A stretch of 64,000 nt of DNA from Savitreella phatthalungensis (taxonomy: Eukaryota). Positions within the stretch are counted from its first letter, which is position 1; every line of letters begins with the position of its first letter. The notes beneath the pieces were generated by a model. That model was not told the DNA's origin. It saw only the letters and a list, made by a program, of their open reading frames with translations, and searched no databases. The DNA lies in NCBI GenBank assembly GCA_051599415.1, contig AP039711.1, positions 1 to 64,000 of the forward strand, given 5' to 3'. Of the stretch, positions 8,911 to 32,618 are shown piece after piece. Both the position numbers and the translations under genes were made by a program.

Positions 8911-10416
8911 TTACAAGTCTGCAAGTAAAGAGTCCTTGAGGTCCAGCAGGGATTCGTGGCGTAATTGGTGCGTAGTGTGAATGTGGCGCACGATTGAGAC
9001 TCGCTCCTGCAGCTCCGCGAGTCTGCTCTCGGCTGCAGCCTGCTCCAGTGTAGCTAGTCTCTGAAAGGCGTGCAGCTTGCCGAGATCGCTCGAGAGTGTC
9101 CTGTGAGCGGCGGAGAGCTTGTCCGAGAGCAATTGCGCGCGGTCGAGGTACCCACCGAGCGCTTTCGTGAGCACCTTTTCAAGCGAGAGGCATCTGGTGG
9201 CGTCACGTTGCAGCAACCGCCCAATCACTGGCAGCGCCGACCGAGGCAGTGCGGGAGACTCGACTTGCTCAGAGGAAATACTCCTCTGACCAGTTGTTTG
9301 AGAGGAGACGCCCACAAATCCGACTTTTCCCGTCGGACGCGGCAAACCGATTTGTTCTGCACGCGGCCGTGCCAAAAAGTCTCTACGCCGACGCTCATCT
9401 TCGTCCTGAAGCCGTCTTCTGTCGAGCTCTTCAGCGTCTAACTCGCCCACGTCTCCGCCATCAGCTCTTGATACACCTTCGTCGTCGCTCGCACCATCGA
9501 CGTCGATCTCGAAATCATTCTTCGGCTTGGGTAAGCTCGAGAAGAGGCCTTTGACCGGAGCAGCACGTGGCCGCTCTTCATCTAGCTCAACACCGTCCTG
9601 TGGTGCCTCGAGCTCGAGCTTTCGCCGCTTGACGGTCTTCTCGACCTCTCGTGCCCTCTTGAGCTGTGTGATGTCCGCAGCAGAATGTCTGACCCGCTTA
9701 TCCGCCTCCCGCTGCTTCTCCTTTTTAGGTGGTGGAGGTTTGTATGCGCCTCTGCTTGCATTGTTTCTTGCAACCTCGTCGGTCACATCATAAAATCCAA
9801 GTGGAACAGTCCGCTCAAGGTGCACGTCGTCGTTGTAGCCGCGCTCGTAACGTAAGCGCATATTGACACCGGCCGCCTTGAGCTCCCTGCGCTTCTGAAT
9901 GACGCTGACACGCTTTGTCTCCTCGAGCAGCTTCTCCCGCTGCTTCCGCTTCGCCTTCTTGCCCATCGTATTAGCCAGCCTGGCCCTCGCCTCTGACAGC
10001 ATCTCCTTCTCCTCCTCGTCCATATCGATCGCGTCCGGCTTGGCGACCTTTGTCTCTGGATCTGTGTCGGCCTGCTGCATGAGCGCATCCTCTCCTACGA
10101 GCGGCGCGGCACCATCAGCATCATCCAACAGCCTCTGATACCTGGCCAGACACTGCGTACTGGTTCTCCCGACAAAGCCGGCGACCGTGCGCCATTGAGA
10201 AGGGAAGAGTTTGACCGCATGCAGCAGCTTCTCGTCCTCGTCACGCGTCCATTCGAGCTTCCGAATTCCTGGGTCTAGCCACTCGCGCCATCGCGCCTTG
10301 CACTGCTTCGGTGTCTTGCGCACCAGCAGAGAAGAGATTCGCGCCCATTGATTCAGCCCGTACTTGGCGATTGCCGCCTTGAGAATCTCATCCTCGACGT
10401 TCGTCCAAGCGGACAT
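8911..10416 (-). CDS. CEF1: Pre-mRNA splicing factor Cef1/Cdc5 (Myb repeats, NTC core)
   Basis: WTNVEDEILKAAIAKYGLNQWARISSLLVRKTPKQCKARW and DMDEEEKEMLSEARARLANT. Likely start is the ATG at 10416. Confidence 0.95.
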   Translation of the reverse strand: MSAWTNVEDEILKAAIAKYGLNQWARISSLLVRKTPKQCKARWREWLDPGIRKLEWTRDEDEKLLHAVKLFPSQWRTVAGFVGRTSTQCLARYQRLLDDADGAAPLVGEDALMQQADTDPETKVAKPDAIDMDEEEKEMLSEARARLANTMGKKAKRKQREKLLEETKRVSVIQKRRELKAAGVNMRLRYERGYNDDVHLERTVPLGFYDVTDEVARNNASRGAYKPPPPKKEKQREADKRVRHSAADITQLKRAREVEKTVKRRKLELEAPQDGVELDEERPRAAPVKGLFSSLPKPKNDFEIDVDGASDDEGVSRADGGDVGELDAEELDRRRLQDEDERRRRDFLARPRAEQIGLPRPTGKVGFVGVSSQTTGQRSISSEQVESPALPRSALPVIGRLLQRDATRCLSLEKVLTKALGGYLDRAQLLSDKLSAAHRTLSSDLGKLHAFQRLATLEQAAAESRLAELQERVSIVRHIHTTHQLRHESLLDLKDSLLADL

Positions 10417-10630
10417 CCGGCAGAGACCGTAGCGTACCGCACCTGATATGGTACGATATGCGATACACGGTGTGCGGCGTACAATGCACGCTTTGCGCCG
10501 TACGGACGAAAAGGTACAATCTGCGATATACGGTGTCTTGTCACGGAGTACCGTGTCTGATGTAATTTTGCCGTGTGCCGTATGGCTTGCTTGCTCGTAC
10601 AAAAGTCTGGGCTAGCACAAGAAAATAGAA

Positions 10631-13225
10631 ATGCACGATTGGATGACACTGGAAAGGGTGCTGGACGAAGTGTACGCGTATCTTGGCGTCAGGGAGCAGG
10701 TACTGGGAGAGTATATTGTAAACCAGCATGCGCTCTCTTCCGGGTATGACGACTTCGCTTCCAGGTTGAAAGATCTGCCGGAGGCCCTCGTCAGGTCACT
10801 CGATCGGATCATCCCACGTCAGCCGCCTGCGAAGAAGCGCAGGCTATCGCCAGACATCGGGAGCGGCGCGGGCAGCAGTCGTGGCAGTGCGTCGGACCAC
10901 GGGCGCGGCCGGAGCTATGACTACGGTTGGGAGCGTGGCCGTGAACGGGACGGGGAACGCAGACGACCGTCAATCGACGAGCAGGAAGACAATGTGGATG
11001 TGGAGCTGCGAGACGATGAGCCAGCCTTCCTAAAAGGCAAGACGAGGAGGTCTCTCGAGCTGTCACCGATCAGAGTGATCCGTGCGCCTGACGGGAGTCT
11101 TAACAGGGCGGCAATGTCGGGTCAGCAGTTGCTGAGGGAGAAGCGCGAAAACGTCCGTGCTACGATCAGGGATCCTGTGAGGGCTGCGCCTCTGCCGACC
11201 ACCACACTCCACCGCGAACTACCGATTCATGCCCTCAGAAAACCCTTGCTTGAGGCTGTGAAAGCCAATCAGATGCTCATCGTCGTCGGAGAAACTGGCA
11301 GTGGTAAGACGACGCAGCTGACGCAATTTCTGGCCGATGCGGGCTTTCCGGGGAGGATTGGATGTACACAGCCGCGTCGCGTCGCAGCGACGAGCGTCGC
11401 GAAGCGCGTGGCCGAGGAACGGCGCGCGAGACTTGGTGGAGAAGTCGGCTACACGGTGCGATTTGACGATTGTTCGTCGGCTGCTACAAAGATCAAGTAC
11501 CTGACGGACGGCATGCTGCAACGGGAGTGCTTACTGGACCCAAATTTGGAGGGCTACGGCGTGATTATCCTAGATGAGGCGCACGAGCGCACGATCGCGA
11601 CCGATGTCCTATTCGGTCTGCTGAAGCGGACTTGCAAACGGCGACCAGATCTCAAACTAATCATCACGAGTGCCACGCTCGACTCGGAAAAGTTTTCGAG
11701 GTATTTCTGGGACTGTCCGATCTTCACGATTCCCGGAAGGACGTTTCCCGTGGAGATTCTGCATGCAAAGGAGCCCGAGCCGGATTACGTGGACGCGGCG
11801 CTGATGACAGTCATGCAGATTCACCTGTCGGAGAACGAAGGAGATATCCTCGTGTTCTTGACAGGTCAAGACGAGATCGAGACGGCGCGTGAGATTCTCG
11901 AGAGCAGGTCCGCGGAGATGAAGGGTCTCGAGATGATTGTCATGCCGATCTACGCGTCTCTGCCGCCAGAGCAGCAGGCGAGAGTTTTCGAGCCGACACC
12001 GCCTGGTTCGCGTAAGATCGTGCTGGCCACCAATATCGCCGAGACGTCAATCACGATCGATGGGATTTACTTCGTGGTCGACCCCGGGTTCGTGAAGCAG
12101 AACGCGTACGATCCGAAACTGGGAATGGACTCGCTCGTTGTAACGCCGATCTCTCAGGCGCAGGCACGGCAGCGCGCAGGTCGAGCTGGTCGAACAGGAC
12201 CTGGCAAGTGCTTCAGACTGTATACGGAGGCCGCATTCGAAAAGGAGATGCTGCCATCTACCGTTCCCGAGATCCAGCGGCAGAACTTGTCGAGCACGAT
12301 TTTGTCACTCAAGGCAATGGGCATAAACGACCTGCTACGATTCGACTTCATGGATCCACCACCGACGCAGACACTACTGAACGCACTTGAGGGGCTTTAC
12401 GTGCTCGGAGCTCTGGACGAGGAGGGTTTGCTGACGCGGATGGGCAGGCGAATGGCCGATTTTCCCATGGAGCCGCACTTGTCGAAGGTGCTGTTGGCTA
12501 GCGTCGATATGGGTTGTTCGCACGAGTGTCTGACGATCATTGCGATGCTCTCTAGCGGCGGCAATGTCTTTCACCGACCGCGTGAGAGACAGGCGCAGGC
12601 AGACGAGGCCAAACGACGGTTTCACCGGAGCGAGGGCGACCATTTGACATTGCTGCACGTGTATGATGCATGGGTACGATCGGATTACTCCCGTGCATGG
12701 TGCATTCAGCACTTTGTGAATGCACGTGCGCTGCTACGCGCCAGGGATGTCCGTCACCAGCTCGAAGGAATCATGGAAAGGTACAAGCAGCCGATCAGGA
12801 GCTGTGGGGGCGACTCGAAGCTGGTACGCAGGGCTATCGTCTCTGGATTCTTCACTCACGCCGCGAAACGAGATCCGCAGGAAGGTTACAAGACCGTGGT
12901 CGAGGGCACGCCTGTCTACATGCATCCGTCATCAGCTCTGTTTCACGCTGGTGGGGGTGGTTTGGGCGGTGGTGCTGAATGGGTGGTGTATCACGAGCTG
13001 GTGGCAACGACGAGGGAGTATATGCACTGCGTGACGCAGATCGAGGCCAAGTGGTTGCCCGAGCTCGCGCCTGCCTTCTTTAAGGTTGCAGACAGTAGAA
13101 CGGTGTCACGGGCAAAAGCACGAGAGCGGATCGTCCCACTTCACTCTAGGGATTCTGCAGACGAGTCATGGAGAATCTCGAAGCAGCGATCGGCTGGACG
13201 TGCTCGCCCGTCCATCTTCTCGTGA
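10631..13225 (+). CDS. PRP22: DEAH-box spliceosomal RNA helicase Prp22/DHX8
   Basis: [19 protein letters not shown] and QRAGRAGR motifs; Prp22-specific [21 protein letters not shown] and [20 protein letters not shown]. Confidence 0.95.
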
Positions 13226-13660
13226 TTGTGGGCTGCGATTCCGAGCTGTGACGAGGGCTTGGCTTACACGCGAGCCTGTGGCAGTCGGTGAAGAGAGGAG
13301 TCAAGTCAAGTCGTCGGTCAATTGCATGCATGATCGAGTCTTGCTGGCCGAACTGGACCAAGCCTAGCTGTGAGGATCCGCAGAATGTTTATTCCATCTT
13401 CAGCTCGTCGCGAATCAGTTTTAATGAAGAACACGTGACGCGGTGAACGCTCCTCTCCCAAGACCTTTCAATCGCACTGAGTGCGTCAAGTGCTGAAGCA
13501 GACGATCTCATGACGATGGAAGAGTGATGATGCTCTTGGAATGGTGACAGTCCCATCAGCAAAGGGACAGTGGCAAAGCGAATGCCTCGCAGGAAATCCG
13601 ATGAAGGTTGGGATCTCATGTAGATAGGCGAATGACATCACGTGCCGTACGAGGGGCGAC

Positions 13661-15706
13661 ATGACACGTCGCCTTTTTCCGAATGCCCTACGTCGGGAAA
13701 TTGTAAAGACCACAGAATCTACAGACTCGCCACACAGTCTAAGAGCAAGCAGTCAAGTATCTTCGTCAACGATATCACTCATGTGTGAAGGCCAGATCCC
13801 ACTTGAAGATGTCGTTTACAGCACCGAAAAGTCATTTGTAAAGCGAGGCATCTTCAGGAGATACGCTTCGACCATATGTACTCTCACCACGATGGCCGGC
13901 GTGCCCAAACTCAACCAAGACCTGATCTACTATGAAATCGGCCGCCGACACGATACAGCTGTCGCTGCAATGAGCCGTCCTCGAAATCCTGTGATCGTTG
14001 ATTCTGGCTTTGAGACTGCAGTGTCCGAAGCCGAAGCGTTGAGGGATTTCGCGCGAGAGCACACGGGTCTCACCATGACCTTTGCTCGGACTAATTTGAT
14101 CGGGGTCGTGGAACGCATCGCTAGAGGACTGGCGTGTGCCTCTCTCTACGAAAAGGTCGACTCCGAGTGTCTCTTCGCGGGTCCGAGAAAGGCTGTCATG
14201 TTGCTCAAGCACCAGTGCCTGGACACTCCGCTCCACGAAAACGTCGTCTTTATTCCTCGCGGGAATACACGCTTCGATGAAAATATCTTCGTTGTTCTGG
14301 CCTCGGCTATCGCCGGAGAAGGAGGAATTCCCGCGACTAATTCTTTGAGCGCCGATGATCCCATGAAGTCAATGTCCCTGCCTACCGTCGACAGCAAAAG
14401 GTTCCCCAAGGCCTGCTTCAATGCCCTTCGGGTCCTCGGCGCCAATTTTGAAGCAAGCAATGCAGGCGATCAATTCGCTCTCGGCTTCACTCAAGGCATC
14501 CACTCGGCCATGAATGTCGTCCCACACAGCTATGAAGGCTCCATCATGCACGAAATCCTGGGCCAGACCTCCTATTCCGTACCTTTCGGGGGTATTCGTC
14601 TCGATCATTCTTCATACTTTGGGTTACCCAAGCATCCAGACGACTTAGTGTCTTTCCATGGTAATGTCGATGGGATCGCACTGAAGACCGCAGCTTTGGT
14701 CGCGCACTGTGACCCTTGTGTGCAGGTGAATGGAGAATGGTTTCCAACCATCCTCGGTGATGGTGCAATGTCCGCTGTTCGAGACGCCGAACTAATTACC
14801 ACATCCGGTAAAAGGGCTGATCGCAACTGGGGTCGTTTGAGACAAGTATTTCCCTCATTCTCCCGGATTTACTGCGCTGCACTCACCAAACTCTTTGCTT
14901 TTCCCCCTTCTGACTCGGGAGCTGACATCCTCTTCAATCACACCATTGATTCTATTGAGGAAGTCAAAAACTCCGTTCCTCTATACTATGGGTCTTTTGC
15001 GCCTTTCTTCTTCATTGAACCGACCAGTCTGGTCGACACTGATTTTGTCGGCTCGATTGCCGAACGAGAGGGCTTCGCTAGTCTTGCTGGGGGAGGTCAG
15101 GATGTCCATGCACGTAATGCGTGGGAGCATATTACCGTGGCCTCATCTTCGCGCAGAAGCGTCACGCATTGGGAGGTCAAGATGCGCAGCGCTCGAACTG
15201 CCTTATTTTTGGCGCATTTCGCAGGCAACCTGCGATCCTGCCTTACATCCATTCGCATCCACGAAATAAATGCAAATGCAACTATGCGGGCCCACAGCGG
15301 TCATCCACGTATAGGTGAATGGTCTCGCGAAGATTCCACGTTGGGCGACTGCCTATGGAGCCATTCCCACTCATGCCTACCTGCACCAAGCGAATTTGTC
15401 CTCCTAGCGCCGTATATGTGTATATCCGTGAGGCACTTTGACACAACGATCGACAAGGACAACCTTCCACTCATGCGGCGCGTTCCCTTGCCTCACGAAT
15501 TTGCTGAGACCAAGATCAAGATTGTTGCGTCCGTTCCGCAGTGGATTTGCCCAGGCAGGGCAGAGTCTCCTACGCGCGACATGGACTTACGTCCCTCAAA
15601 CGCTGTTGCCCAGATATCTAAGGCATGCACAAGTTCAGTCAGGGACCAATCGAGAAAACGGTCAAGAGCTTCAGCAGAGCTGTCAGATGGTGAAGCAAGA
15701 GAATGA
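13661..15706 (+). CDS. Endogenous victorivirus/totivirus-like capsid protein (non-retroviral integrated RNA virus gene); start could be the ATG at 13781
   Basis: Motifs FRRY, IYYEIGRR, VERIARGLA, YSVPFGGI, DGIALKTAALVAHCDPCVQVNGEWFPT and APFFFIEPTSL occur in the order I recall from victorivirus coat proteins. Confidence 0.85.
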   Translation: MTRRLFPNALRREIVKTTESTDSPHSLRASSQVSSSTISLMCEGQIPLEDVVYSTEKSFVKRGIFRRYASTICTLTTMAGVPKLNQDLIYYEIGRRHDTAVAAMSRPRNPVIVDSGFETAVSEAEALRDFAREHTGLTMTFARTNLIGVVERIARGLACASLYEKVDSECLFAGPRKAVMLLKHQCLDTPLHENVVFIPRGNTRFDENIFVVLASAIAGEGGIPATNSLSADDPMKSMSLPTVDSKRFPKACFNALRVLGANFEASNAGDQFALGFTQGIHSAMNVVPHSYEGSIMHEILGQTSYSVPFGGIRLDHSSYFGLPKHPDDLVSFHGNVDGIALKTAALVAHCDPCVQVNGEWFPTILGDGAMSAVRDAELITTSGKRADRNWGRLRQVFPSFSRIYCAALTKLFAFPPSDSGADILFNHTIDSIEEVKNSVPLYYGSFAPFFFIEPTSLVDTDFVGSIAEREGFASLAGGGQDVHARNAWEHITVASSSRRSVTHWEVKMRSARTALFLAHFAGNLRSCLTSIRIHEINANATMRAHSGHPRIGEWSREDSTLGDCLWSHSHSCLPAPSEFVLLAPYMCISVRHFDTTIDKDNLPLMRRVPLPHEFAETKIKIVASVPQWICPGRAESPTRDMDLRPSNAVAQISKACTSSVRDQSRKRSRASAELSDGEARE

Positions 15707-16374
15707 ATGCTTCAACTTGCAATGCTGACGCTGGTTTGTGCCCTGCTGCATCAGAAGAACGGCTGAGACTCGATCGAAAAGTTTCTGTACGATGGAGAGT
15801 ATGGGGCGAACGCACTTTGAGGTGGCGAGGATGGGGATGCACGAAATTTAGGAGGATTTGATTACTTAATTAGCTAGAAGATCGATTAGTCGCGCAAGAG
15901 CACGTGTTTTGAGGTTGAAATTTCATGATCCGAGTCTGCGGTCCGTCAGATCAAGAATTACCGATCAATCTTGACGGAAACCGGAAATCAAACTTTTTTT
16001 CTTTGCCCGTTCAATTCAATTCGATTGACCACTATTACTGCTCGAGTACTCTCATTAAAGAGACAGGCGGGAATCTTATAGATCGATTAGTCCAGATCTA
16101 GAACTAATCAAATCAATCAATCTCAGAAGTCTTAGATCTTCTTATTACCCGCAGCCCGGAACAATCGGGAGATCGATATATCCTGACTGATCTTGCTTAC
16201 TTTGCTGACTTGATTACTTGCTTACCCTTCCCAAATAAACTTTTTGTGAGACGGTCACCGAGGGGTAGCATCACCAGACACACAGGCTTCGATAGACATC
16301 CACACCTCGTACAAAGTCTTCGACCTGCATCTCAATCAAATCATCAGACCTTCGACCCGCTCTCCTCATCAGGG

Positions 16375-19300
16375 ATGTCCGCTAGAACGGCTTACCTGAC
16401 GAGTGACACCGTCTACGTCGTTGGCAGCGCTACTGCGCCCGCCCATGCCGTTTCTGCCGATGAGTCGAACGTCTACAGTCCGGTCGTTCCACAGGTCGTA
16501 CGCCTTAGGGAGACTGCAGATCCATTCCTTCAAGTGCTCGAGGCTCTAGGTGGCGACGCAAAGGGACGTCTAGCAACTGTGATTGCACCAGCATCGACCC
16601 TCGTACAGGCTGTTCCCCATCTCTACCGCCTCGCTCACTTGCCACTCACGATCCTCGTCGAGGCACGGGATGACTATGCAGACATTCAGGCATTGCGCTC
16701 GACCGGCATTGCCATCTTTCAGGCATTCAGCCCACAGGAGGCACAGGATCTCTCCCTCGTCGCTCGCTCAGTCGCAGTGTCTACGCGCCGTGCAAATATC
16801 GTCTTTTTCGAGAAGCAGGCACAGGAGAGCGAGGTCACAGCGCTAGAGACTGACCAGATCGAGCGATTGCTCGGTGATGCCGTTGGAGCGCGCGAGCAGG
16901 CCCTCGACGCCAGCGCACTGTATACAGCGAACGAGTCTGCAGTCGACGTCTCGTCTGCCATTACAACCGCCCTCGCAGAGTTTTCTAAGGTCACAGGCCG
17001 GTCGTACGCACCTTTGGAGTACACGGGCTCACAGACCGCAGACTCCGCCATCGTTCTCTTCGGCTCCAACGCTGCGAGCTTCCGCGCACGTATCGCTAAG
17101 AGCTTCAAGGGCGATGTCGAGTCTGCCGCGGGCGTCCTCCTGGTTCGTGTCTACCGCCCCTTCGATGCGGCTGCCGTCCAGAAGGCTCTTCCCGCGACTG
17201 TCAAGCGCGTTGCCGTGCTCGAGCAGCTTCGCACACGCACCTCTCGTTGGAATCCGCTTTTCCTCGACGTTCTTCAGGCCTTGCAGGCACGCGACGACGT
17301 CAAGGTCGTTTCCGGTCAGCTCGGCATCAATACCGAGGAAACTGTCTCGCAGGCTCTGCGCGGTGTCCTTCACAACCTCCGCGCCGACAAGCCACTCCAG
17401 AACCTCTTCGTCGGTAACCCTTTCCCTGAGACGCAGAAGGAAAGCCTTCAGACACCCGCGATCGAGAGCGCATACGACAAGATCCTCAAGCAAGTGTTTG
17501 GCGACCGTCTGGACATCGTCAACAGACAGGAAGGTCTTGCCGGGCTCAGCACTTCCCCAGAATACGCACTCGGACGTGCGCTCGCTCAGCAGGAGTCTCG
17601 CGCTGCATTCGTGAGCGCAGCCTCGCCAGAGGGTCTCACATCGGCCAAGGACGCCTTCCACGCATGGCAGGCGGTTGCTCACTCCAAGCAGGAGTCCGCT
17701 TGTGCCGCAGCTGCTCTCGTCGAGGCGCTCCAGGCTGATACATCGGACGCAGCCAAGAAGCTGCTCGAGAACGCCAGTTTGTTGCCGCTGCCAACTCCTT
17801 GGCTTGTGGTCTCTGATGCATGGGCAGCCGACCTCGGCAACGGTGGTGTCCACCACCTGCTTGCATCCGACGCCAAGGTCAACATGCTTGTCATTGACTC
17901 TAACCCGGGCTCGCGCAAGAAGGACGTCGGTCTGTATGCCATGAACTTTGGCAACGCTTACGTCGCATCCACCGCCGTCTACGCATCTTACACCCAGGTC
18001 CTCGCAGCCATGGTCGAGGCCGACAAGTTCGATGGACCTTCGGTTGTGCTCGCATACCTGCCATACACCGAGGACGATGCGACGCCTGTCACCGTCCTCC
18101 AGGAGACAAAGCGCGCAGTCGAGTCAGGCGCATGGCCACTATACCGCTTCACCCCGTCGACCGACGGCGAGGCCAAGTTCGAGCTTGACAGCGAGAGACT
18201 GCGTCGTGAGCTCCAGGACTTCCTGAAGCGCGACCAGCGCCTCTCTCAGCTCGCTAGACGCGACCCGAAGTTCGCAGCCTCTCTCGCCAGCCACCACGGC
18301 GCAGAGGTGCGCGCACAGCAGAAGCGCAAGGCCAGAAGCGCATACGACAAGATGCTCGAGAGCCTGAGCGGACCGCCGCTCACGATCCTCTACGCGTCTG
18401 ACGGCGGCAACGCAGAGAACCTCTCGAAGCGTCTCGCGCGCCGCGCAAAGGCACGCACCCTCAAGGCCAAGGTGATGGCGATGGACGACTACCCCGTGGA
18501 GGAGCTATCGAACGAGAAGAACTTGATCCTCGTCAGCGCCACAGCCGGACAGGGCGAGTTCCCACAGAACGGTCGCAACTTTTGGGAAGCCGTCAGGTCG
18601 TCTCTTGATCTCGATCTCTCCAACACAAACTTCTCCGTCTTTGCCATGGGCGACTCTCACTACTGGCCACGTGCAGCAGACAAGCACTACTACAACAAGC
18701 CTGGCAAAGACCTGCTTGCACGTGTCACTGCGCTCGGCGGCAAGCTCATGGTTGACATCGGTCTCGGTGACGACCAGGACCCTGATGGTTACGAGACTGG
18801 CTACCAGGCATGGGAACCTGAGCTGTGGAAGGCAATGGGTGTGGACAAGATGGACGTCGTCGTTGACGAGCCAAAGGTGCGCGGTCCGGAAGATGTTAAG
18901 GTCGAGTCGAACTTCTTGCGCGGTGGAATCGTGGCTGGTTTGAAGGACGAGTCGACCGGTGCAATCTCAGCCGATGACGCTCTCCTGACCAAGTTCCACG
19001 GCACGTACATGCAAGACGACCGTGACGTTCGCGAGCAGCGCAAGGCTGATGGCCTCGAGCCGGCATACTCCTTCATGATCCGTGCACGACTTCCCGCCGG
19101 TGTGGCCACACCTGAGCAGTGGATCGCCATGGACGAGATCAGCGACACCTATGGCAACCACACCTTCAAGCTGACGACTCGTCAGACATTCCAGTGGCAC
19201 GGCGTGCTGAAGCGCAATCTCAAGCGCACGATTGCAGCCATCAACAAGGCGCTCATCACGACAATTGCCGCCTGTGGTGACGTGAATCGAAACGTCATGT

Positions 19301-20604
19301 GCTCTACCATCCCGTCCCTCTCGGACTTCCATGCACAGGTCTTCCAGACGGCCAAGGGTATCTCTGACCACCTGCTGCCCAACACGTCTGCATACCACGA
19401 GATCTGGCTGACCGATGACAATGGCAAGGAGCTCGTCGCTGGCGGTGAGGTCAAGGACACAGAGCCGCTCTACGGTCCGACATACCTGCCTCGCAAGTTC
19501 AAGATTGCCGTTGCTGTGCCTCCCACAAACGATGTGGATGTGTACACGAACGATGTCGGATTTATCGCGATTCGGGACGACAAGGGTGCACTCGCTGGCT
19601 TCAACGTGTCTCTCGGTGGAGGTATGGGCACGACCCACAACAACAAGAAGACGTACCCGCGCCTGGGTACCGTCTTCGCATTCTGCACGCCTCAAGACGT
19701 GAATGTGGTCGCAGAGGCCATCATGATCTGCCAGCGTGACAACGGCGACCGCAAGGACCGTAAGCACGCTCGCCTAAAATACACCGTCGACGACTTTGGC
19801 GTTCCCTTCTTCCGCGAGTTTGTGGAGAAGTACATTGGTCACGCTCTTGAGGAGCCGCGTGATTTCGTCTTTGACACAAACGTCGATGTCTTTGGCTGGC
19901 AAAAGGGTGAGGACGGCAGACATCACTTCGGCATGTTCATCGAGAACGGCCGTATCGAGGACACGCCGGAATTCCAGATGAAGACCGGTCTGCGCGAGAT
20001 TGCTAAGCAGGTCAAGGGCATCGAGTTCAGACTGACCCCGAACCAGCACCTCATCCTCTCAAACGTGTCTGAGAAGCAGCTCGGCAAGGCAAAGGATCTT
20101 CTGGCCAAGTACAAGCTGGACAACCTTCAATTCACACAGCTGCGACTCTCGTCATCTGCTTGTGTGGCCCTGCCGACATGCGGTCTCGCCATGGCAGAGT
20201 CAGAGCGATACCTACCCGTGCTGATTACGAAGCTCGAGGAGACCATCACGAGTGCCGGTCTCGAGAAGGACTCGATCGTGATGCGAATGACTGGTTGCCC
20301 TAACGGCTGTGCTCGGCCATGGGTTGCCGAGATTGCTTGCGTCGGCAAGGCTCCAGGCACGTACAACTTGTACCTCGGCGGTGGACACTACGGACAGAGA
20401 CTCAACAAGCTCTACCGCGCATCTCTCCAGGAAGGCGAGATCCTCGACGTCCTCACACCCATGATCCGCAAGTGGGCAGTCGAGCGCAAGGACGGTGAAG
20501 CGTTTGGCGACTTTGTCATCCGCGCAGGCTACATCAAGGAGACGTTCGAGGGCAAGGACTTCCATGACGGTGTCGACCTCGAGGATGAGACTCTCGCTGC
20601 ATAG
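16375..20604 (+). CDS. MET5: Sulfite reductase [NADPH] beta subunit (PFOR-like + flavodoxin + siroheme/4Fe-4S domains)
   Basis: LYASDGGNAE flavodoxin motif; KFHGTYMQDDRD, ACGDVNRN, LPRKFKIA, CVALPTCGLA and MTGCPNGC motifs. Confidence 0.95.
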   Translation: MSARTAYLTSDTVYVVGSATAPAHAVSADESNVYSPVVPQVVRLRETADPFLQVLEALGGDAKGRLATVIAPASTLVQAVPHLYRLAHLPLTILVEARDDYADIQALRSTGIAIFQAFSPQEAQDLSLVARSVAVSTRRANIVFFEKQAQESEVTALETDQIERLLGDAVGAREQALDASALYTANESAVDVSSAITTALAEFSKVTGRSYAPLEYTGSQTADSAIVLFGSNAASFRARIAKSFKGDVESAAGVLLVRVYRPFDAAAVQKALPATVKRVAVLEQLRTRTSRWNPLFLDVLQALQARDDVKVVSGQLGINTEETVSQALRGVLHNLRADKPLQNLFVGNPFPETQKESLQTPAIESAYDKILKQVFGDRLDIVNRQEGLAGLSTSPEYALGRALAQQESRAAFVSAASPEGLTSAKDAFHAWQAVAHSKQESACAAAALVEALQADTSDAAKKLLENASLLPLPTPWLVVSDAWAADLGNGGVHHLLASDAKVNMLVIDSNPGSRKKDVGLYAMNFGNAYVASTAVYASYTQVLAAMVEADKFDGPSVVLAYLPYTEDDATPVTVLQETKRAVESGAWPLYRFTPSTDGEAKFELDSERLRRELQDFLKRDQRLSQLARRDPKFAASLASHHGAEVRAQQKRKARSAYDKMLESLSGPPLTILYASDGGNAENLSKRLARRAKARTLKAKVMAMDDYPVEELSNEKNLILVSATAGQGEFPQNGRNFWEAVRSSLDLDLSNTNFSVFAMGDSHYWPRAADKHYYNKPGKDLLARVTALGGKLMVDIGLGDDQDPDGYETGYQAWEPELWKAMGVDKMDVVVDEPKVRGPEDVKVESNFLRGGIVAGLKDESTGAISADDALLTKFHGTYMQDDRDVREQRKADGLEPAYSFMIRARLPAGVATPEQWIAMDEISDTYGNHTFKLTTRQTFQWHGVLKRNLKRTIAAINKALITTIAACGDVNRNVMCSTIPSLSDFHAQVFQTAKGISDHLLPNTSAYHEIWLTDDNGKELVAGGEVKDTEPLYGPTYLPRKFKIAVAVPPTNDVDVYTNDVGFIAIRDDKGALAGFNVSLGGGMGTTHNNKKTYPRLGTVFAFCTPQDVNVVAEAIMICQRDNGDRKDRKHARLKYTVDDFGVPFFREFVEKYIGHALEEPRDFVFDTNVDVFGWQKGEDGRHHFGMFIENGRIEDTPEFQMKTGLREIAKQVKGIEFRLTPNQHLILSNVSEKQLGKAKDLLAKYKLDNLQFTQLRLSSSACVALPTCGLAMAESERYLPVLITKLEETITSAGLEKDSIVMRMTGCPNGCARPWVAEIACVGKAPGTYNLYLGGGHYGQRLNKLYRASLQEGEILDVLTPMIRKWAVERKDGEAFGDFVIRAGYIKETFEGKDFHDGVDLEDETLAA

Positions 20605-20846
20605 ACTTCCCCGTCGAGCCTCTGTCTCTCTCGGATCATTCAACACGTGTTTGTGTCTCTATCCATAAAATACCTTACACAGCGAATCTCACCACCATTT
20701 TTCCATTCCTATAGTTACGCTAAGCACAAATTCAATTTTACACATTCTAACGACACATAGAATCTGAGATATGGAAATTGAAAATTCTTATATAAAACTG
20801 TGATTGTGAACATGAGTGTGATAATCCAACTCTCTTGTGCATTTGT

Positions 20847-21683
20847 CTAGAGCTTGGACTCTGGCTCGAAGAACTTGCCGTTGGATGCAAGGTGTCCACC
20901 TTCACAGCCGATGACTGAGCCTGAGATGTAGCTTGCGGCCTTGCCTGAGAGGAAGACGCAGAGTCCGCCGACGTCTGAGGCCCTACCGATTCTGCCGATC
21001 GGGATACCAGCCTTGATGGCATCTCCTGCGGCCTCGAGCGTCGCCTTCATCATGTGTGACTGGAAGGGTCCACAGGCGATGACGTTGGAGGTGATGAGTC
21101 TCTCACCGAGGTGTCCTGCGAGCGAGCGGGACAGCATCTGGAGTCCCGCCTTGGAGGCAGAGTAGGCGAAGGTCTCGTGGACGGGGACGCGGTTGCCGTC
21201 GACACTGCCGATGTGGATCACCCTGCCTGGGTCGTCCTGCGTAGCCTCCTTCTCCAGCAGCGGCGCACACACCTGGGTGACGACGAAGGGGGAGATCAGG
21301 TTGAGCCCTAGCACGCGCTGCCACGCTGCGTCCGGGTACTCGTCGAATGGAGCAGCCCAGTTGTTTCCGGAGTTGTTGACGAGCACGTGGAGTTTTCCGC
21401 CTGTGATCTCGGAGATCTGGTCGACGACCTTGACCACGTCCGCACGCTTTGTCAGGTCGCCTGGGATCGCATAGCACTTGCCCTTTCTTCCAAGCTTGTT
21501 CAGCTCGGCCGCCGTCTCCTCACACACCTTTGCCTTTCGGGAGGAGATGAACACGTGAGCGGCGTCACACTCCATGAACGTCCGAGCAATCATGTATCCG
21601 ATACCCTGACCACCTCCCGTGACAAACACGGACTTGCCGGCGATCCCGAAAAGTGTCTGTGGGTCTAGCGCTTCGTATGACAT
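20847..21683 (-). CDS. Short-chain dehydrogenase/reductase (classical SDR, RhlG-like)
   Basis: TGGGQGIG, VNNSG and catalytic YSASK motifs. Confidence 0.9.
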   Translation of the reverse strand: MSYEALDPQTLFGIAGKSVFVTGGGQGIGYMIARTFMECDAAHVFISSRKAKVCEETAAELNKLGRKGKCYAIPGDLTKRADVVKVVDQISEITGGKLHVLVNNSGNNWAAPFDEYPDAAWQRVLGLNLISPFVVTQVCAPLLEKEATQDDPGRVIHIGSVDGNRVPVHETFAYSASKAGLQMLSRSLAGHLGERLITSNVIACGPFQSHMMKATLEAAGDAIKAGIPIGRIGRASDVGGLCVFLSGKAASYISGSVIGCEGGHLASNGKFFEPESKL

Positions 21684-21811
21684 TTTTTTGGGAGAAGAGA
21701 GGTTTACTGTATACGATTTACAGCTTTCTCGAGCGATCTGTTATGAACAAGGTAAGTTGTGTAAAGGTGCTGTGTAGAGAGAGAGTGTACTGTACGAGCG
21801 TGTCCTTGGGA

Positions 21812-22155
21812 GTGGAAGTGGAGTGGAGTGGAGTGGAGTGGAGTGTGTGGGTGAGAATGTGTGGGGGAATATTTTTGGCCTGTTCTGGGTTGAACCAATT
21901 AAATCTTTTGAATTGGTTCTTTCTTGCATCTGAATGAAATTCAAGGCGAAAAAGGTTGATCCGATGCACCTCGGCTTAAAAGTGGAAATAAAGTGGTCGC
22001 CGGATGCAGGATTCATCGAGCTAGTCAGTGGGTCAGTCGGTCAGTCAGTGGATGGGTGGGTGGGTCAGTCAGTGAGTAAAAGAGTCAGTCAGTGATTGAG
22101 TCACTCAGTCAGTCAGTGAGTCAATCAGTGAGTGAGTGACTCAGTGGTCAGTCAG
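21812..22155. repeat. (GTGGA)n and (CAGT/GAGT)n microsatellites in the divergent intergenic region
   Basis: GGAGT repeats at 21812-21845 and CAGT repeats at about 22020-22155. Confidence 0.75.
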
Positions 22156-30209: not shown

Positions 30210-32618
30210 ATGCGGTGTGGTCATCGCCTTGGCGGTGGACATGCAGGCAGCAGCGTGTTATCGGTGGCTGTGTCGGCTGGGGTGATCTTTGCCGGTTTGC
30301 AGGACGGCCGGATCCTGGAGTACGATGACGACACGTACACCTGTATCCGCGAGCTCCGACACGATGGCCCTGTGCTGTCACTCGTCGTCTCGCACGCACG
30401 CCTGATCTCGTCCGCCGGCGACTCGACCGTCAAAGTGTGGGACCTCCTAAACCGATCACGCGAACCGATCCTCACAGTCTACTCGGTCTACGACGTCGGC
30501 GACATCTTCTCGACCGCTTGCGATGGCGATCGGCTGTGGATCGGGTGTCAGAACACGTCGATCCAGTGGGTCGATATCTCTGTGGACGACGAGCGGGAGA
30601 TCGAGGTCACCGCCAACGCAGCAAAGTACCGCGAACGGCCTCACAAATTCTTCGACAGCAACACCACCTCCGTCACACGCAGAAGGCCATCACTGACGAT
30701 GCGCACGGTTCTCCAGATTGACGAGGACGACGTTGTACAGTACGCTCACTACTCATACGTGTTGTGCTTGCTGGTCGGCCGGTATCGTGGGAGGACACAC
30801 TTGTTTTCAGGGGGTGGTGATGGCGCGGTGAACGTGTGGAGCAGGGATGAGATGAAGCCTGTGTCGTCGCTCGTGGGAGAGCACCCTGTGAATTGCCTCG
30901 CTCAGCGGGATTCCCTCCTGTTTGCTGGTCAGTCGGGAGGTGGGATCTGCGTGTGGGAGCTTGAGACTGACCAGCTGCTGCGCCGGGTGAACGCCCACAC
31001 GCACGACATCCTCGCACTCGCTGTCTGGGGTGACCGTCTGTTCAGCTGCGCCGGTAGAGAGCTCAAGAGCTGGGCAGTCAGAGGCCAACTCGAGTTGGAG
31101 TCGACAGAGGAAGCCCACGCAAAGGTGCTCTGTTGTGCGGCTGGCGCTGCATGCCTTGTGACTGGTGGCAGCGATAACGATGTGGCCGTCTGGCGTGTCG
31201 GTGATCTTTCGACTGGCGGAGGCGGAGCAGGAGGTCAAGGGCGTGATGAGGATGCTGATGCCTTCCTCGCCTCACTCGCCACTATGTGCGCATTCAGATC
31301 CGTCAGCGGGAGCGATAGGCACATCGAGGACTGTCACCTCGCAGCGGCACACCTCAAACACTTGGGAGAATCTCTAGGTGCAGAAGCTCACCTCCTCCCT
31401 ACACAACACAACCCAGTCGTCCTGTTATCGTTCCGCGGAAGTGCGCCAAGACGGCGGTCGCTGTTATTCTACGGGCACTATGACGTGATTTCTGCAGATG
31501 AAAAGTCGTGGAAGACATCGCCATGGCGACTTGCTGGAAGGGATGGGTACCTGTACGCACGCGGAGTCTCCGACAACAAAGGGCCGGTTCTGTCGGCCCT
31601 GTACGCGGCGAGCGAAGCGCGGTCGTCGGACGTCGACATCCACCTCGTGATCGAGGGCGAAGAGGAGAGCGGATCGCGCGGGTTTCGAGAAGCTGTAGAG
31701 GGTGCTCGGGCAAAGGGACTTCTCCCTGACCACGTTGACGAGATCTTCCTGTCAAACTCGTACTGGCTGGACGATCACACGCCGTGTTTGACGTACGGGT
31801 TGCGCGGCGTCATTCGGGCGACAGTCACAGTCGATGCACCTGATCGCCCGGATTTGCACTCTGGTGTCGAGGGTGGTACGGTGCGAGAGCCGATGAGTGA
31901 CTTGTTTGGACTGGTCGCTTCGCTGTCGCGCAATGGGGAAATCACATTGCCTGGATTCTATGATGCCGTGAGAGGGGCTTCTGCGGGGGAACTCGATCTG
32001 TACGGTGCTGTGGCACGGCGTGTCAAGGATACGTCGGTCAGAAGGCTCGAGCAGAAGTGGTCGTTGCCGTCACTCACCGTCCACAAGGTGGATGTGTCGG
32101 GGCCAGGTAACCACACCGTCATTCCAGCTCGCGCAACCGCACACCTGAGCATCCGGATCGTGCCTGACCAGTCACTTGAAAAGGTTGCCGCCTCACTCCG
32201 CGAATTTCTAGAAACAGGCTTTGCGGCACTCGACAGCGGTAACGTCCTCCACGTCGATATCGGCCACACGGCTGATTGGTGGCTGTCCCCGCCGGAGTCT
32301 GCTGCCGTCGACAGATTGAGCTCGATCATTGCAGAAGCATGGTCGCTCGATGAGAAGCCGTTGTTGATTCGTGAGGGTGGATCGATCCCGATGGTCTCCT
32401 TCCTGGAGAAAACCTTCTCGGCAGACACCGTCTTGCACTTCCCGATGGGTCAGGCGTCCGATCAGGCGCATCTCGTGGACGAGCGCCTGCGCGTCGCCAA
32501 CTTGATCAAGGGTCGGTATGTGATGCGTCGCTGGTTCATGTTTGTTGGAGGGACTGCTGGTGAGGAGGCGACTCGGGCGAATGGTCTGAGCTCAGATTCA
32601 GGTCGCGCTCCTTTCTGA
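30210..32618 (+). CDS. DUG2: Glutathione degradosome subunit: WD40 + M20 peptidase domain
   Basis: WD repeats with IGCQNTSIQW; M20 motifs FYGHYDVI, ARGVSDNKGP, EGEEESGS and REGGSIP. Confidence 0.9.
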   Translation: MRCGHRLGGGHAGSSVLSVAVSAGVIFAGLQDGRILEYDDDTYTCIRELRHDGPVLSLVVSHARLISSAGDSTVKVWDLLNRSREPILTVYSVYDVGDIFSTACDGDRLWIGCQNTSIQWVDISVDDEREIEVTANAAKYRERPHKFFDSNTTSVTRRRPSLTMRTVLQIDEDDVVQYAHYSYVLCLLVGRYRGRTHLFSGGGDGAVNVWSRDEMKPVSSLVGEHPVNCLAQRDSLLFAGQSGGGICVWELETDQLLRRVNAHTHDILALAVWGDRLFSCAGRELKSWAVRGQLELESTEEAHAKVLCCAAGAACLVTGGSDNDVAVWRVGDLSTGGGGAGGQGRDEDADAFLASLATMCAFRSVSGSDRHIEDCHLAAAHLKHLGESLGAEAHLLPTQHNPVVLLSFRGSAPRRRSLLFYGHYDVISADEKSWKTSPWRLAGRDGYLYARGVSDNKGPVLSALYAASEARSSDVDIHLVIEGEEESGSRGFREAVEGARAKGLLPDHVDEIFLSNSYWLDDHTPCLTYGLRGVIRATVTVDAPDRPDLHSGVEGGTVREPMSDLFGLVASLSRNGEITLPGFYDAVRGASAGELDLYGAVARRVKDTSVRRLEQKWSLPSLTVHKVDVSGPGNHTVIPARATAHLSIRIVPDQSLEKVAASLREFLETGFAALDSGNVLHVDIGHTADWWLSPPESAAVDRLSSIIAEAWSLDEKPLLIREGGSIPMVSFLEKTFSADTVLHFPMGQASDQAHLVDERLRVANLIKGRYVMRRWFMFVGGTAGEEATRANGLSSDSGRAPF

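What the first reader, a model, noticed from the sequence alone, without database searches (positions are those of the whole stretch)
13661..15706. Intact victorivirus-type capsid gene, without RdRp, inserted between PRP22 and MET5: candidate domesticated antiviral gene
Seen: an uninterrupted, intronless ORF of about 640-680 aa carrying victorivirus coat-protein motifs in order (FRRY...IYYEIGRR, VERIARGLA, VPFGGI, IALKTAALVAHCDP..VNGEWFPT, PFFFIEPTSL). There is no RdRp, LTR or transposase nearby, and both neighbours are single-copy housekeeping genes. The Ala/Gly/Pro-rich C-terminal tail typical of victorivirus capsids is absent and is replaced by a short end containing RKRSR. Known: dsRNA mycoviruses have no DNA stage, and capsid-derived endogenous genes from L-A-like totiviruses occur in some yeasts, where they can interfere with related viruses. 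Inference: a diverged but stop-free ORF suggests purifying selection, i.e. a host-co-opted capsid acting as a dominant-negative restriction factor, an RNAi trigger or an RNA-packaging particle.
Basis: partly seen in the sequence, partly recalled or inferred. Interest (0 to 1): 0.88.

Follow-up and report, generated by a model that had tools for sequence, protein, structure and literature searches.

The report
Victorivirus capsid gene in fungal chromosome
A fungal chromosome carries an intact copy of the coat-protein gene of a double-stranded RNA fungal virus, wedged between two housekeeping genes; this kind of viral fossil is already known in yeasts, and whether the host now uses this one remains unproven.

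Summary
An uninterrupted 681-codon ORF (13661-15706, +) matches Pfam Totivirus_coat at E 6.7e-113. Its predicted fold matches solved totivirid capsids. It lies between a PRP22-like helicase gene and a MET5-like sulfite reductase gene. No RdRp remnant, retroelement or repeat signature was found in the 64-kb window. Two contig assemblies from the probable source sample span both junctions. A roughly 96-97% identical lineage in another study also carries pieces of the gene. In a more distant relative the PRP22-MET5 interval is 2460 bp shorter, too short to hold it. So this is a real, lineage-restricted endogenous viral element: a capsid-only DNA copy of a victorivirus-like virus in a fungus whose PRP22 is closest to Taphrina and Protomyces.

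Domestication is not shown. No RNA data exist and dN/dS could not be computed. The nearest virus is only 36-38% identical, so divergence from known viruses does not date the insertion. The element has lost 16 of 57 residues invariant in 36 viral capsids (worst virus 5%) and sits on a very long branch, yet has no stop codon. That hints at ORF retention under altered constraint. An unsampled divergent donor virus is not excluded (AU p 0.335).

It is a new member of a known kind, of moderate interest.

The parts
13661..15706 (+). Uninterrupted ORF of 681 codons plus TGA: the endogenous victorivirus-like capsid gene
   Evidence: ORF; PF05518, E 6.7e-113; 30-37% identity to 43 viral coat proteins
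13661..13780 (+). 40-codon N-terminal extension with no viral counterpart. It is predicted disordered and may be 5' leader rather than coding sequence.
   Evidence: viral N-termini align from about residue 41-48; pLDDT below 50 for residues 1-43; no similarity to viral genomes
13781..13783 (+). ATG of Met41. It lies 2-3 residues upstream of where viral start codons align and is the likely ancestral viral initiation codon. It has a weak context (C at -3).
13892..13894 (+). ATG of Met78, the start of the 604-aa protein on record for this contig. It has the best context (A at -3, G at +4), but starting here would remove the first strand of the N-terminal hairpin.
   Evidence: P0001 equals residues 78-681; strand 64-78
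13844..15583 (+). Capsid shell domain (residues 62-641), matched by the Pfam profile and confidently folded
   Evidence: pLDDT 79.2, pTM 0.82; LRV1 capsid 7ns2_B, E 9.4e-32, TM 0.73/0.80; totivirid and victorivirus coat models, TMq 0.81-0.83
15584..15652 (+). Low-confidence linker containing a roughly 22-residue insertion absent from all 36 aligned viral capsids
   Evidence: alignment columns 841-862; pLDDT below 50 for residues 636-667
15653..15670 (+). RKRSRA, homologous to the conserved viral RRARTRA motif that precedes the Ala/Gly/Pro-rich tail
15704..15706 (+). TGA stop, 11 codons after the motif. The viral tail of about 100-150 residues is missing. 2 of 80 tblastn alignments run weakly through this stop, to 15724 and 15745.
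13226..13660 (.). Upstream intergenic DNA (53% GC). No viral similarity, no repeat signature.
15707..16374 (.). Downstream intergenic DNA (45% GC). No poly(A) tract, no RdRp or capsid-tail relic.
10631..13225 (+). Upstream host gene: PRP22/DHX8-like DEAH helicase
16375..20604 (+). Downstream host gene: MET5-like sulfite reductase subunit

Best explanation
This is a non-retroviral endogenous viral element. It is a DNA copy of the 5' part of the plus strand of a victorivirus-like dsRNA mycovirus. It carries the capsid ORF through the end of the shell domain, without the Ala/Gly/Pro tail and without the RdRp. It is integrated in the PRP22-MET5 intergenic region of a fungus whose PRP22 is nearest to Taphrina and Protomyces.

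Shown:
- Viral ancestry and capsid fold.
- Chromosomal context.
- Presence in a second lineage about 3.5% diverged.
- An interval too short to hold the gene in a more distant relative.

Inferred:
- Integration came after the split from that relative and before the split of the two carriers. It presumably used a host reverse transcriptase, although no signature remains.
- The gene has since changed many residues that every sampled virus keeps, without acquiring a stop or frameshift. I read this as ORF retention by selection under constraints that are no longer those of a replicating capsid (about 50% likely).
- If it is expressed, the most likely action is capsid interference. A shell-domain protein, full-length from Met41 or N-truncated from Met78, would co-assemble with or titrate the capsid of related incoming victoriviruses and so poison particle assembly or packaging.
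For: Viral ancestry:
- PF05518 at E 6.7e-113.
- The 43 other homologues are 30-37% identical and sit on contigs of 5.7 kb or less where a length is given.
- 80 and 59 further relatives all lie on contigs of 6.0 kb or less.
- Nothing closer than 38% over the full length (40% on one 478-aa protein, 42% on one 243-aa fragment) appears among 1.84 billion representative proteins.

Fold:
- The AF2 model has pLDDT 79.2 and pTM 0.82.
- Its best solved match is the LRV1 capsid, TM 0.73/0.80. Victorivirus and totivirid models are the best matches in BFVD.

Integration:
- One 25,126-bp contig (X1) covers 9000-22000 with 0 differences. A 14,695-bp contig (X2) covers 10691-22000. Both runs are from one sample, probably the source.
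- X3, from another study, has pieces of the gene (14033-14238, 8 differences; 14444-14646, 6 differences). One piece crosses the ORF end into host DNA (15700-15909).
- In X4, PRP22 (12029-12286) and MET5 (18991 onward) lie on one contig with 4244 letters between them instead of 6704. That leaves about 689 bp of intergenic DNA.

Capsid only:
- No RdRp hit in the window, best E 0.026.

Altered constraint with an open frame:
- 16 of 57 virus-invariant columns are changed. The worst virus changes 5%, and the pooled figure for viruses is 21 of 2073.
- The end branch is 2.96 against a median of 0.38, and 2.46 against 0.72 for its sister.
- Neutral change of about 27% of residues leaves the frame open in only about 0.1% of 4000 simulations.

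Mechanism precedent:
- Taylor and Bruenn 2009 (PMC2805616, section 4 read) report that capsid overproduction or capsid fragments cure L-A virus, and they propose interference by capsid-like integrated genes.
- A 130-aa C-terminal region of the HvV190S capsid is dispensable for particle assembly (PMC3597494, passages read).
Against: - No expression data. No listed run is on record as RNA.
- The AU test does not reject placing the element outside the 31 ingroup viruses (delta lnL 11.2, p 0.335). The long branch and lost 'invariants' could therefore belong to an unsampled divergent donor virus.
- In a wider set of 168 capsids, 2 others lose as many of the columns conserved at 90% or more.
- The loss is not uniform across conservation classes: 24-28% at classes of 80% or more, against 62-80% below. 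Part of the divergence therefore looks ordinary and virus-like.
- GC3 (0.535) is lower than in 15 of the 16 other long ORFs of the window (0.57-0.71), all but an uncharacterised one at 46893-49085 (0.486), and it is close to intergenic composition.
- Divergence from X3 is the same in the gene (14/409, 3.4%) as in flanking genes (49/1392, 3.5%) and in the non-coding piece (9/210, 4.3%). This gives no sign either way.
- Survival of the ORF over that time is not rare under neutrality (P 0.14-0.33, stops only).
- The element is known in two close lineages only.
- The structure model was built on viral sequences and cannot prove that this variant still folds or assembles.
Confidence: 0.5

Rival explanations
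1. Neutral viral fossil. The capsid cDNA was inserted fairly recently from a divergent, unsampled victorivirus-like lineage. It has no function, and its frame is still open only because too little time has passed. The long branch and the changed 'invariant' residues arose in the donor virus, not in the host.
For: - The AU test does not reject a position outside the sampled virus crown (p 0.335).
- The nearest virus is only 36-38% identical, so the donor is unsampled.
- P(no stop) is 0.14-0.33 for K 0.035-0.02, the scale of the X3 divergence.
- GC3 is the second lowest of the 17 long ORFs of the window and near intergenic values.
- The element is absent from the more distant relative X4.
- The gene is no less diverged from X3 than the non-coding piece (3.4% against 4.3%).
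- The ORF's end may differ in X3: a loose end before 15700 and a TC insertion after 15777, at depth 2.
Against: - None of the 36 viruses loses more than 5% of the columns invariant in the others, while the element loses 28%.
- The ML tree with 14 outgroups places it inside the 23-row clade (SH-aLRT 100), even though a long branch would be expected to pull it towards the outgroup.
- The two coding pieces from X3 (409 bp) contain no indel, whereas the 210-bp non-coding piece has one. The sample is small.
- Indels, which the simulation ignores, would lower the neutral survival probability further.
Confidence: 0.38
2. A co-opted gene with a cellular role unrelated to virus defence, for example an RNA-binding or compartment-forming protein. 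The capsid fold is kept but the capsid-specific residues are free to change.
For: - The ORF is open despite heavy change at capsid-invariant positions.
- The amino-acid make-up is shifted away from viral capsids (chi-square p below 0.001).
- Taylor and Bruenn conclude that yeast capsid-like genes were co-opted for cellular functions (PMC2805616, section 4 read).
- Toti-like elements co-opted in planthoppers are reported (PMC10636211, abstract only).
Against: - The element has a narrow distribution: two close lineages carry it and X4 lacks it.
- There are no expression data.
- Nothing in the sequence points to a particular cellular role.
Confidence: 0.08
3. Artefact: a viral contig joined by mistake to fungal DNA, or a contaminating virus sequence.
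For: Only contigs, not raw reads, could be laid. X1 and X2 come from one sample, which is probably the source of the window.
Against: - Two separate run assemblies give the same junctions with 0 differences and even depth.
- The runs are listed as DNA (a guessed label), and a dsRNA virus has no DNA stage.
- A run from another study (X3) has a contig crossing from the ORF end into the downstream host DNA, and it carries the flanking genes at the same divergence.
- There is no RdRp, and the capsid is truncated.
Confidence: 0.02

Closest known systems
Totivirus-like non-retroviral integrated RNA virus genes of yeasts (Taylor and Bruenn 2009, PMC2805616), especially the capsid-only copy in Candida parapsilosis
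   Same: Both are capsid genes of a totivirid dsRNA virus sitting in fungal chromosomal DNA with an uninterrupted ORF despite strong divergence. Neither shows an obvious retroelement signature at the flanks. Residues important to the viral capsid are altered in both. The interference hypothesis applies to both.
   Different: Those derive from L-A-like members of genus Totivirus and are found in Saccharomycotina, Penicillium and Uromyces. This one derives from the victorivirus-like lineage (Pfam PF05518) and sits in a host nearest to Taphrina and Protomyces. For the yeast genes, transcripts and dN/dS below 1 were shown; here neither could be tested. Here a relative appears to have an empty site.
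Victorivirus coat proteins (prototype HvV190S; PMC3597494)
   Same: Same Pfam family, same order of conserved motifs, and same predicted secondary-structure core. The shell domain is complete, and that is the part sufficient for particle assembly in HvV190S.
   Different: There is no Ala/Gly/Pro-rich tail (19% against a median of 47%), no downstream RdRp and no functional AUGA stop-restart unit. 16 of 57 positions invariant in 36 viral capsids are changed. It is encoded in DNA between host genes.
Leishmania RNA virus 1 capsid (PDB 7ns2, 6y83)
   Same: It is the best solved structural match (TM 0.71-0.82, about 600 aligned columns). It is also the only solved structure found by sequence (E 3.9e-11).
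   Different: Only 17-18% identity. It is the capsid of a protozoan virus and an exogenous particle protein.
Co-opted toti-like endogenous elements of planthoppers (PMC10636211, abstract only) and capsid-derived restriction factors such as mouse Fv1 (recalled, not from a call)
   Same: These are viral structural-gene copies kept as host genes. They serve as models for what a domesticated capsid could do.
   Different: Animal hosts, different virus lineages, and function shown experimentally. No functional evidence exists here.

Membership tests
Totivirus_coat (PF05518) / victorivirus-type capsid protein | Profile match above the curated threshold over most of the shell domain | tested here: met
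   378.7 bits against a cut-off of 25; residues 62-641 against profile positions 17-603 of 759
Totivirus_coat (PF05518) / victorivirus-type capsid protein | Totivirid capsid fold | tested here: met
   The model has pTM 0.82. The LRV1 capsid matches at TM 0.73/0.80, followed by TVV and L-A. Victorivirus models are the best BFVD matches. Caveat: the model rests on an alignment of viral capsids.
Totivirus_coat (PF05518) / victorivirus-type capsid protein | [quoted passage not shown] | tested here: not met
   A+G+P is 19% of the last 130 aa, against 31.5-63.8% in 36 viral capsids. The ORF ends 11 residues after the RRARTRA-like motif.
Totivirus_coat (PF05518) / victorivirus-type capsid protein | Residues invariant across viral capsids are retained | tested here: not met
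   41 of 57 are kept and 16 are lost. No virus loses more than 5%.
Genus Victorivirus genome (exogenous virus) | Capsid ORF followed by an RdRp ORF through an AUGA-type stop-restart | tested here: not met
   No RdRp similarity in the 64-kb window (72 queries, best E 0.026). An ATGA tetranucleotide overlaps the stop, but nothing RdRp-like follows it.
Non-retroviral endogenous viral element (integrated RNA-virus gene) | Sequence of RNA-virus origin, related to exogenous viruses | tested here: met
   Every homologue with a recorded contig length, other than the window's own protein, lies on a virus-sized contig. The ML tree places the element inside a virus clade. The AU test leaves a position just outside the crown open.
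Non-retroviral endogenous viral element (integrated RNA-virus gene) | Contiguous with host genes in DNA, junctions supported independently of the assembly | tested here: met
   Host genes lie on both sides. X1 and X2 contigs span both junctions, but come from the same sample. An X3 contig from another study crosses the 3' end of the ORF. Only contigs were available, not raw reads.
Non-retroviral endogenous viral element (integrated RNA-virus gene) | Empty orthologous site in a relative | tested here: met
   On the X4 contig the PRP22-MET5 interval is 2460 bp shorter, leaving about 689 bp between the genes. This is inferred from lengths; the X4 sequence itself was not seen.
Non-retroviral endogenous viral element (integrated RNA-virus gene) | Marks of retroelement-mediated integration (poly(A), target-site duplication) | tested here: not met
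   No poly(A) tract after the ORF. Only short, chance-level repeats are present. No RT gene among the ORFs scanned. The yeast cases also lack such marks (PMC2805616).
Domesticated (co-opted) viral gene | Intact ORF | tested here: met
   681 codons without a stop. All 80 viral capsid alignments lie in a single frame.
Domesticated (co-opted) viral gene | Purifying selection among orthologues (dN/dS below 1) | not testable with these tools
   X3 differs at 14 of 409 laid bases, but the positions were not listed. No protein fragments of it are on record. Comparison with viruses is saturated at 36-38% identity.
Domesticated (co-opted) viral gene | Expression as RNA and protein | not testable with these tools
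   No listed run is on record as RNA.
Domesticated (co-opted) viral gene | Retention across diverged host lineages | tested here: inconclusive
   Present in two lineages about 3.5% apart and absent from a more distant one.

The most novel reading that the evidence does not exclude
The gene is a fungal capsid-derived restriction factor. The frame and the shell fold would be kept by selection. Positions that every replicating victorivirus must keep would be free, or even driven, to change, as in an arms race with the viruses it blocks. The relative with an empty site would make this a natural presence/absence system for antiviral immunity in a non-model ascomycete lineage.
Probability: 0.2. Interest if true: 0.75.

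Novelty: new member of a known kind. Interest (0 to 1): 0.45.

Why it matters
Integrated capsid genes of dsRNA totivirids have been known in yeasts since 2009. The idea that they interfere with related viruses was proposed then, but remains largely untested outside Saccharomyces.

This locus adds three things:
- It extends the record to the victorivirus lineage and to a host nearest to Taphrina and Protomyces. My three searches on victorivirus-derived integrations and two on viruses of Taphrina-type hosts found no report of such an element.
- It shows that victorivirus-like viruses once infected this host lineage.
- It offers a clean test case: an intact single-copy gene at a defined site, a close second carrier for dN/dS, and a relative with an apparently empty site for comparison.

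The conflict between heavy change at capsid-invariant positions and an unbroken 2-kb frame is the one feature a specialist would want resolved.

Tried and rejected
- Whole-genome search for further copies or an RdRp: no genome is held.
- RNA evidence: no RNA holder listed.
- dN/dS from the second carrier: the X3 differences were counted, but their positions were not among the 40 rows shown (98 more not shown). A search for short protein fragments found none (3421 candidates, none at E 0.001 or better).
- Single-protein scans of viral and metagenome contigs found no close relative. Profile scans found only virus-sized contigs.
- Earlier notes of this scan: nothing.
- RdRp or capsid-tail relics in the flanks: tblastn at E up to 100 gave nothing better than E 0.12 in 15650-16400 and E 0.84 in 13226-13790. 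blastn of the flanks against 139 viral loci gave E 0.29 or worse.
- The ATGA at the stop as a relic of the viral stop-restart signal: rejected. The capsid tail that should precede it is missing, nothing RdRp-like follows, and an A before a TGA is expected one time in four.
- Target-site duplications, LTRs, tRNA genes and Rfam families near the gene: none.
- Composition as a clock: the 11 closest viral capsid regions span GC 0.53-0.61 and GC3 0.48-0.68, so the element's values (0.52, 0.535) say little.
- Single-nucleotide reachability of the replaced conserved residues: 28 of 40 for the element against 77% for viruses, so it does not discriminate.
- A uniform 'constraint-blind' loss model does not fit. 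Losses are 24-28% in classes of 80% or more but 62-80% below.
- The rooted position of the element inside the virus crown is favoured but not significant. In the 37-row tree without outgroups its attachment had no support.
- No complex prediction was run, because two capsid chains exceed the size limit.
Full report
**What is there**

An ATG-to-TGA ORF of 681 codons lies at 13661-15706 on the + strand. No ORF of 100 aa or more lies opposite it.

It matches Pfam Totivirus_coat (PF05518) at 378.7 bits, E 6.7e-113. The match covers residues 62-641 against profile positions 17-603 of 759. By sequence it also finds one kind of solved structure, the 7ns2/6y83 capsid, at E 3.9e-11.

An AlphaFold model built on an alignment with 36 viral capsids has mean pLDDT 79.2 and pTM 0.82. 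Residues 1-43 and 636-667 are disordered.
- Its best solved match is the Leishmania RNA virus 1 capsid (7ns2_B, E 9.4e-32, TM 0.73/0.80, about 600 columns). The Trichomonas virus and L-A capsids follow.
- Among predicted viral structures the best matches are totivirid and victorivirus coat proteins, with TMq 0.81-0.83.
- The model leans on viral sequences. It shows that the sequence is compatible with the fold, not that this variant still assembles.

**Surroundings**

Upstream (10631-13225, +) is a DEAH helicase with Helicase_C, HA2 and OB_NTP_bind domains. Its best named relatives are PRP22/DHX8 of Taphrina deformans (66%) and Protomyces lactucae-debilis (68%). An unnamed protein reaches 70%, and Pezizomycotina reach about 61-63%. 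The host is therefore an ascomycete nearest to the Taphrina/Protomyces group, but not close to either.

Downstream (16375-20604, +) is a protein with the sulfite-reductase domain set.

The other 24 long ORFs of the window are ordinary cellular genes or have no family. None is a reverse transcriptase, integrase, transposase or RdRp.

I took 152 stop-to-stop ORFs of 250 aa or more from 80 victorivirus-like genomes and searched the whole window with tblastn.
- The 80 capsid ORFs hit only 13691-15745, all in the frame of the ORF.
- The 72 others (presumed RdRps) gave nothing better than E 0.026.
- More permissive protein and nucleotide searches of the two flanks found nothing either.

There is no poly(A) tract after the ORF, no flanking repeat beyond chance-level short matches, no tRNA gene and no Rfam family.

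**Ends of the gene**

Viral capsid N-termini align from about residue 41-48.
- Met41 (13781) probably corresponds to the viral start codon. The 40 codons before it have no viral counterpart and are predicted disordered.
- The protein on record for this contig starts at Met78. Met78 has the best start context, but starting there would remove the first strand of the N-terminal hairpin.

The ORF stops 11 residues later.
- The Ala/Gly/Pro-rich tail that defines victorivirus capsids (PMC3597494, passages read) is absent. A+G+P is 19% of the last 130 residues, against 31.5-63.8% in 36 viral capsids.
- Two of 80 tblastn alignments run weakly through the TGA, to 15724 and 15745. The stop could therefore be secondary, but this is not significant.
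- In HvV190S a 130-aa C-terminal region is dispensable for particle assembly (PMC3597494). What remains here is the part that builds the shell.

**Is it really in the chromosome, and who else has it?**

No genome is held, so I used public runs. All four are kept as contigs, and their DNA label is a guess.
- X1 and X2, one sample that is probably the source: one 25,126-bp contig covers 9000-22000 with 0 differences, and one 14,695-bp contig covers 10691-22000. Two run assemblies thus agree on both junctions, though they are not independent of the source.
- X3, another study and another organism label, with short contigs at depth 2-3.6. It carries the flanking genes at 49 differences in 1392 bases (3.5%). 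It carries two pieces of the capsid gene at 14 differences in 409 bases (3.4%, no gaps). One piece runs from the last codons into the downstream DNA (15700-15909: 9 differences, plus a TC insertion after 15777).
- X4, same organism label as the source but a different sample, under 90% identity. One 30,647-bp contig holds PRP22 (12029-12286) and MET5 (18991 onward) in the same relative order. Only 4244 letters lie between these points, instead of 6704.

Subtracting the coding parts (939 + 2616 nt) from the X4 distance leaves about 689 bp between the genes. The window has 3149 bp there. A 2-kb capsid gene cannot fit, although a short remnant could.

The simplest reading is an insertion after the split from the X4 lineage and before the split of the two carriers. 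Loss in X4 is not excluded.

**Relatives**

Apart from the window's own 604-aa protein, which lies on a 229,341-bp contig, all 43 homologues found by word search are 30-37% identical. Where a contig length is given, it is 5.7 kb or less. Named examples include Tolypocladium ophioglossoides totivirus 1 and Sclerotinia nivalis victorivirus 1.

An exhaustive HMMER pass over 1.84 billion representative proteins found 263 relatives. None is closer than 38% over its full length (40% on one 478-aa protein, 42% on one 243-aa fragment). The 80 viral and 59 metagenome loci found with the capsid profile are all 6.0 kb or shorter. Within these collections, this is the only copy embedded in a large contig.

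**Has it been kept by selection?**

The element is about as far from any virus as the viruses are from each other, so most of the divergence may be viral.

I asked instead whether its own branch is unusual.
- In the 37-row alignment, 57 columns are invariant in all 36 viruses. The element has changed 16 of them (28%). In leave-one-out tests no virus changes more than 5%, and the median is 0. The pooled figure for viruses is 21 of 2073.
- Examples are HTDEGG read as HSYEGS, and YLWxRGQS read as CLWSHSHS.
- In columns conserved at 90-99% and at 80-89% it has lost 25% and 24%, against 6.8% and 15.8% for viruses. In less conserved classes it has lost 62-80%, against 30-57%.
- In a wider set of 168 capsids it has the highest loss at columns conserved at 80% or more (22 of 73). 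Two others match it at 90% or more (8 of 37).
- Its end branch is 2.96 changes per column, against a median of 0.38, and its amino-acid make-up deviates.
- With 14 distant capsids as outgroup, the ML tree puts it inside a 23-row virus clade (SH-aLRT 100), weakly beside P0002. Its branch is 2.46 against 0.72 for P0002.

Suppose those extra changes were neutral and came after integration. About 0.15 substitutions per site would then be needed to change 27% of residues. In simulation only 5 of 4000 such histories kept the frame free of stops, before counting indels. That would mean selection for an open frame under constraints that are no longer those of a working capsid.

**Why this is not proof**

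- The AU test does not reject a tree with all 31 ingroup viruses together and the element outside them (delta lnL 11.2, p 0.335). The tree was a quick search with long branches in play. A divergent, unsampled donor could then explain the lost 'invariants'.
- The loss pattern is not uniform across classes, so part of the divergence looks ordinary and virus-like.
- For the time since the split from X3 (K about 0.02-0.035 per lineage), an open frame survives in 14-33% of neutral simulations.
- The gene is no less diverged from X3 than the one non-coding piece (3.4% against 4.3%).
- GC3 is 0.535. Fifteen of the 16 other long ORFs of the window have 0.57-0.71; only an uncharacterised ORF at 46893-49085 is lower (0.486). 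The flanking intergenic DNA is 45-53% GC. The closest viral capsids span GC3 0.48-0.68, so this says little.
- The end of the ORF may read differently in X3. A loose end before 15700 suggests a 2-base difference six bases before the stop, and there is a 2-base insertion after 15777. Both are at depth 2 and could be errors.
- No run on record as RNA holds the locus.
- dN/dS could not be computed. The positions of the X3 differences were not shown, and no protein fragments of X3 are on record.

**Verdict on mechanism**

That this is an endogenous, capsid-only copy of a victorivirus-like virus is close to certain (about 95%).

I put retention of the frame by selection at about even odds. If the gene is expressed, the best-supported action is capsid interference.
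- In the yeast L-A system, overproduced capsid or capsid fragments cure the virus.
- Taylor and Bruenn proposed this role for integrated capsid-like genes, which outnumber integrated RdRps (PMC2805616, section 4 read).

A neutral young fossil is the main rival (about 38%). A cellular role unrelated to viruses (about 8%) and an assembly artefact (about 2%) trail behind.

**Novelty**

Integrated totivirid capsid genes in fungi are established (PMC2805616; commentary PMC2823675, abstract only). Co-opted toti-like elements are described in planthoppers (PMC10636211, abstract only).

My full-text searches turned up no report of a victorivirus-derived integration in a fungal genome, nor of viruses or such elements in Taphrina-type hosts. 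The library omits most subscription journals. One relevant 2010 survey of dsRNA-virus gene transfer, which I recall, was not seen.

This is a new member of a known kind. Its value is as a tidy test case, not as a new principle.

Noticed in passing
window 10631-13225 (+), with 8914-10416 (-): The PRP22-like helicase is only 860-864 aa. It lacks the N-terminal part, including the S1 domain (PF00575), that nearly all listed homologues of 1145-1450 aa carry. Its start lies only about 215 bp from the divergently oriented Cef1/Cdc5-like Myb gene, so there is little room for a missed upstream exon.
   Followed up: partly
window about 10400-20400, compared with the X4 contig: In the relative X4 the block holding PRP22 and MET5 is inverted relative to the upstream Myb gene (joint 10396 to 20385 on opposite strands). 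One breakpoint falls just upstream of the short PRP22 gene.
   Followed up: no
window 15690-15780, compared with an X3 contig: The second carrier lineage may differ by two bases just before the stop (loose end GTGAAGCA before 15700). It also has a TC insertion after 15777. Together these would give the gene a different, longer C-terminal reading there. The depth is only 2, so this may be error.
   Followed up: partly
window 30210-32618 (+): One 802-aa ORF combines WD40 repeats (about residues 22-331) with a Peptidase_M20 domain and its dimerisation domain (419-775). This could be a fused gene or two genes read as one.
   Followed up: no
window 46893-49085 (+): A 730-aa ORF has no Pfam family and an unusual composition by codon position (GC1 0.70, GC2 0.61, GC3 0.49), unlike the other long ORFs.
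   Followed up: no
window 11366-11517 and 12009-12045: Other contigs of the source sample match only short stretches of the helicase gene and then run on unlike it. They are presumably paralogous DEAH helicases. This bears on the 'single-copy' claim only in that no second full copy was seen.
   Followed up: no
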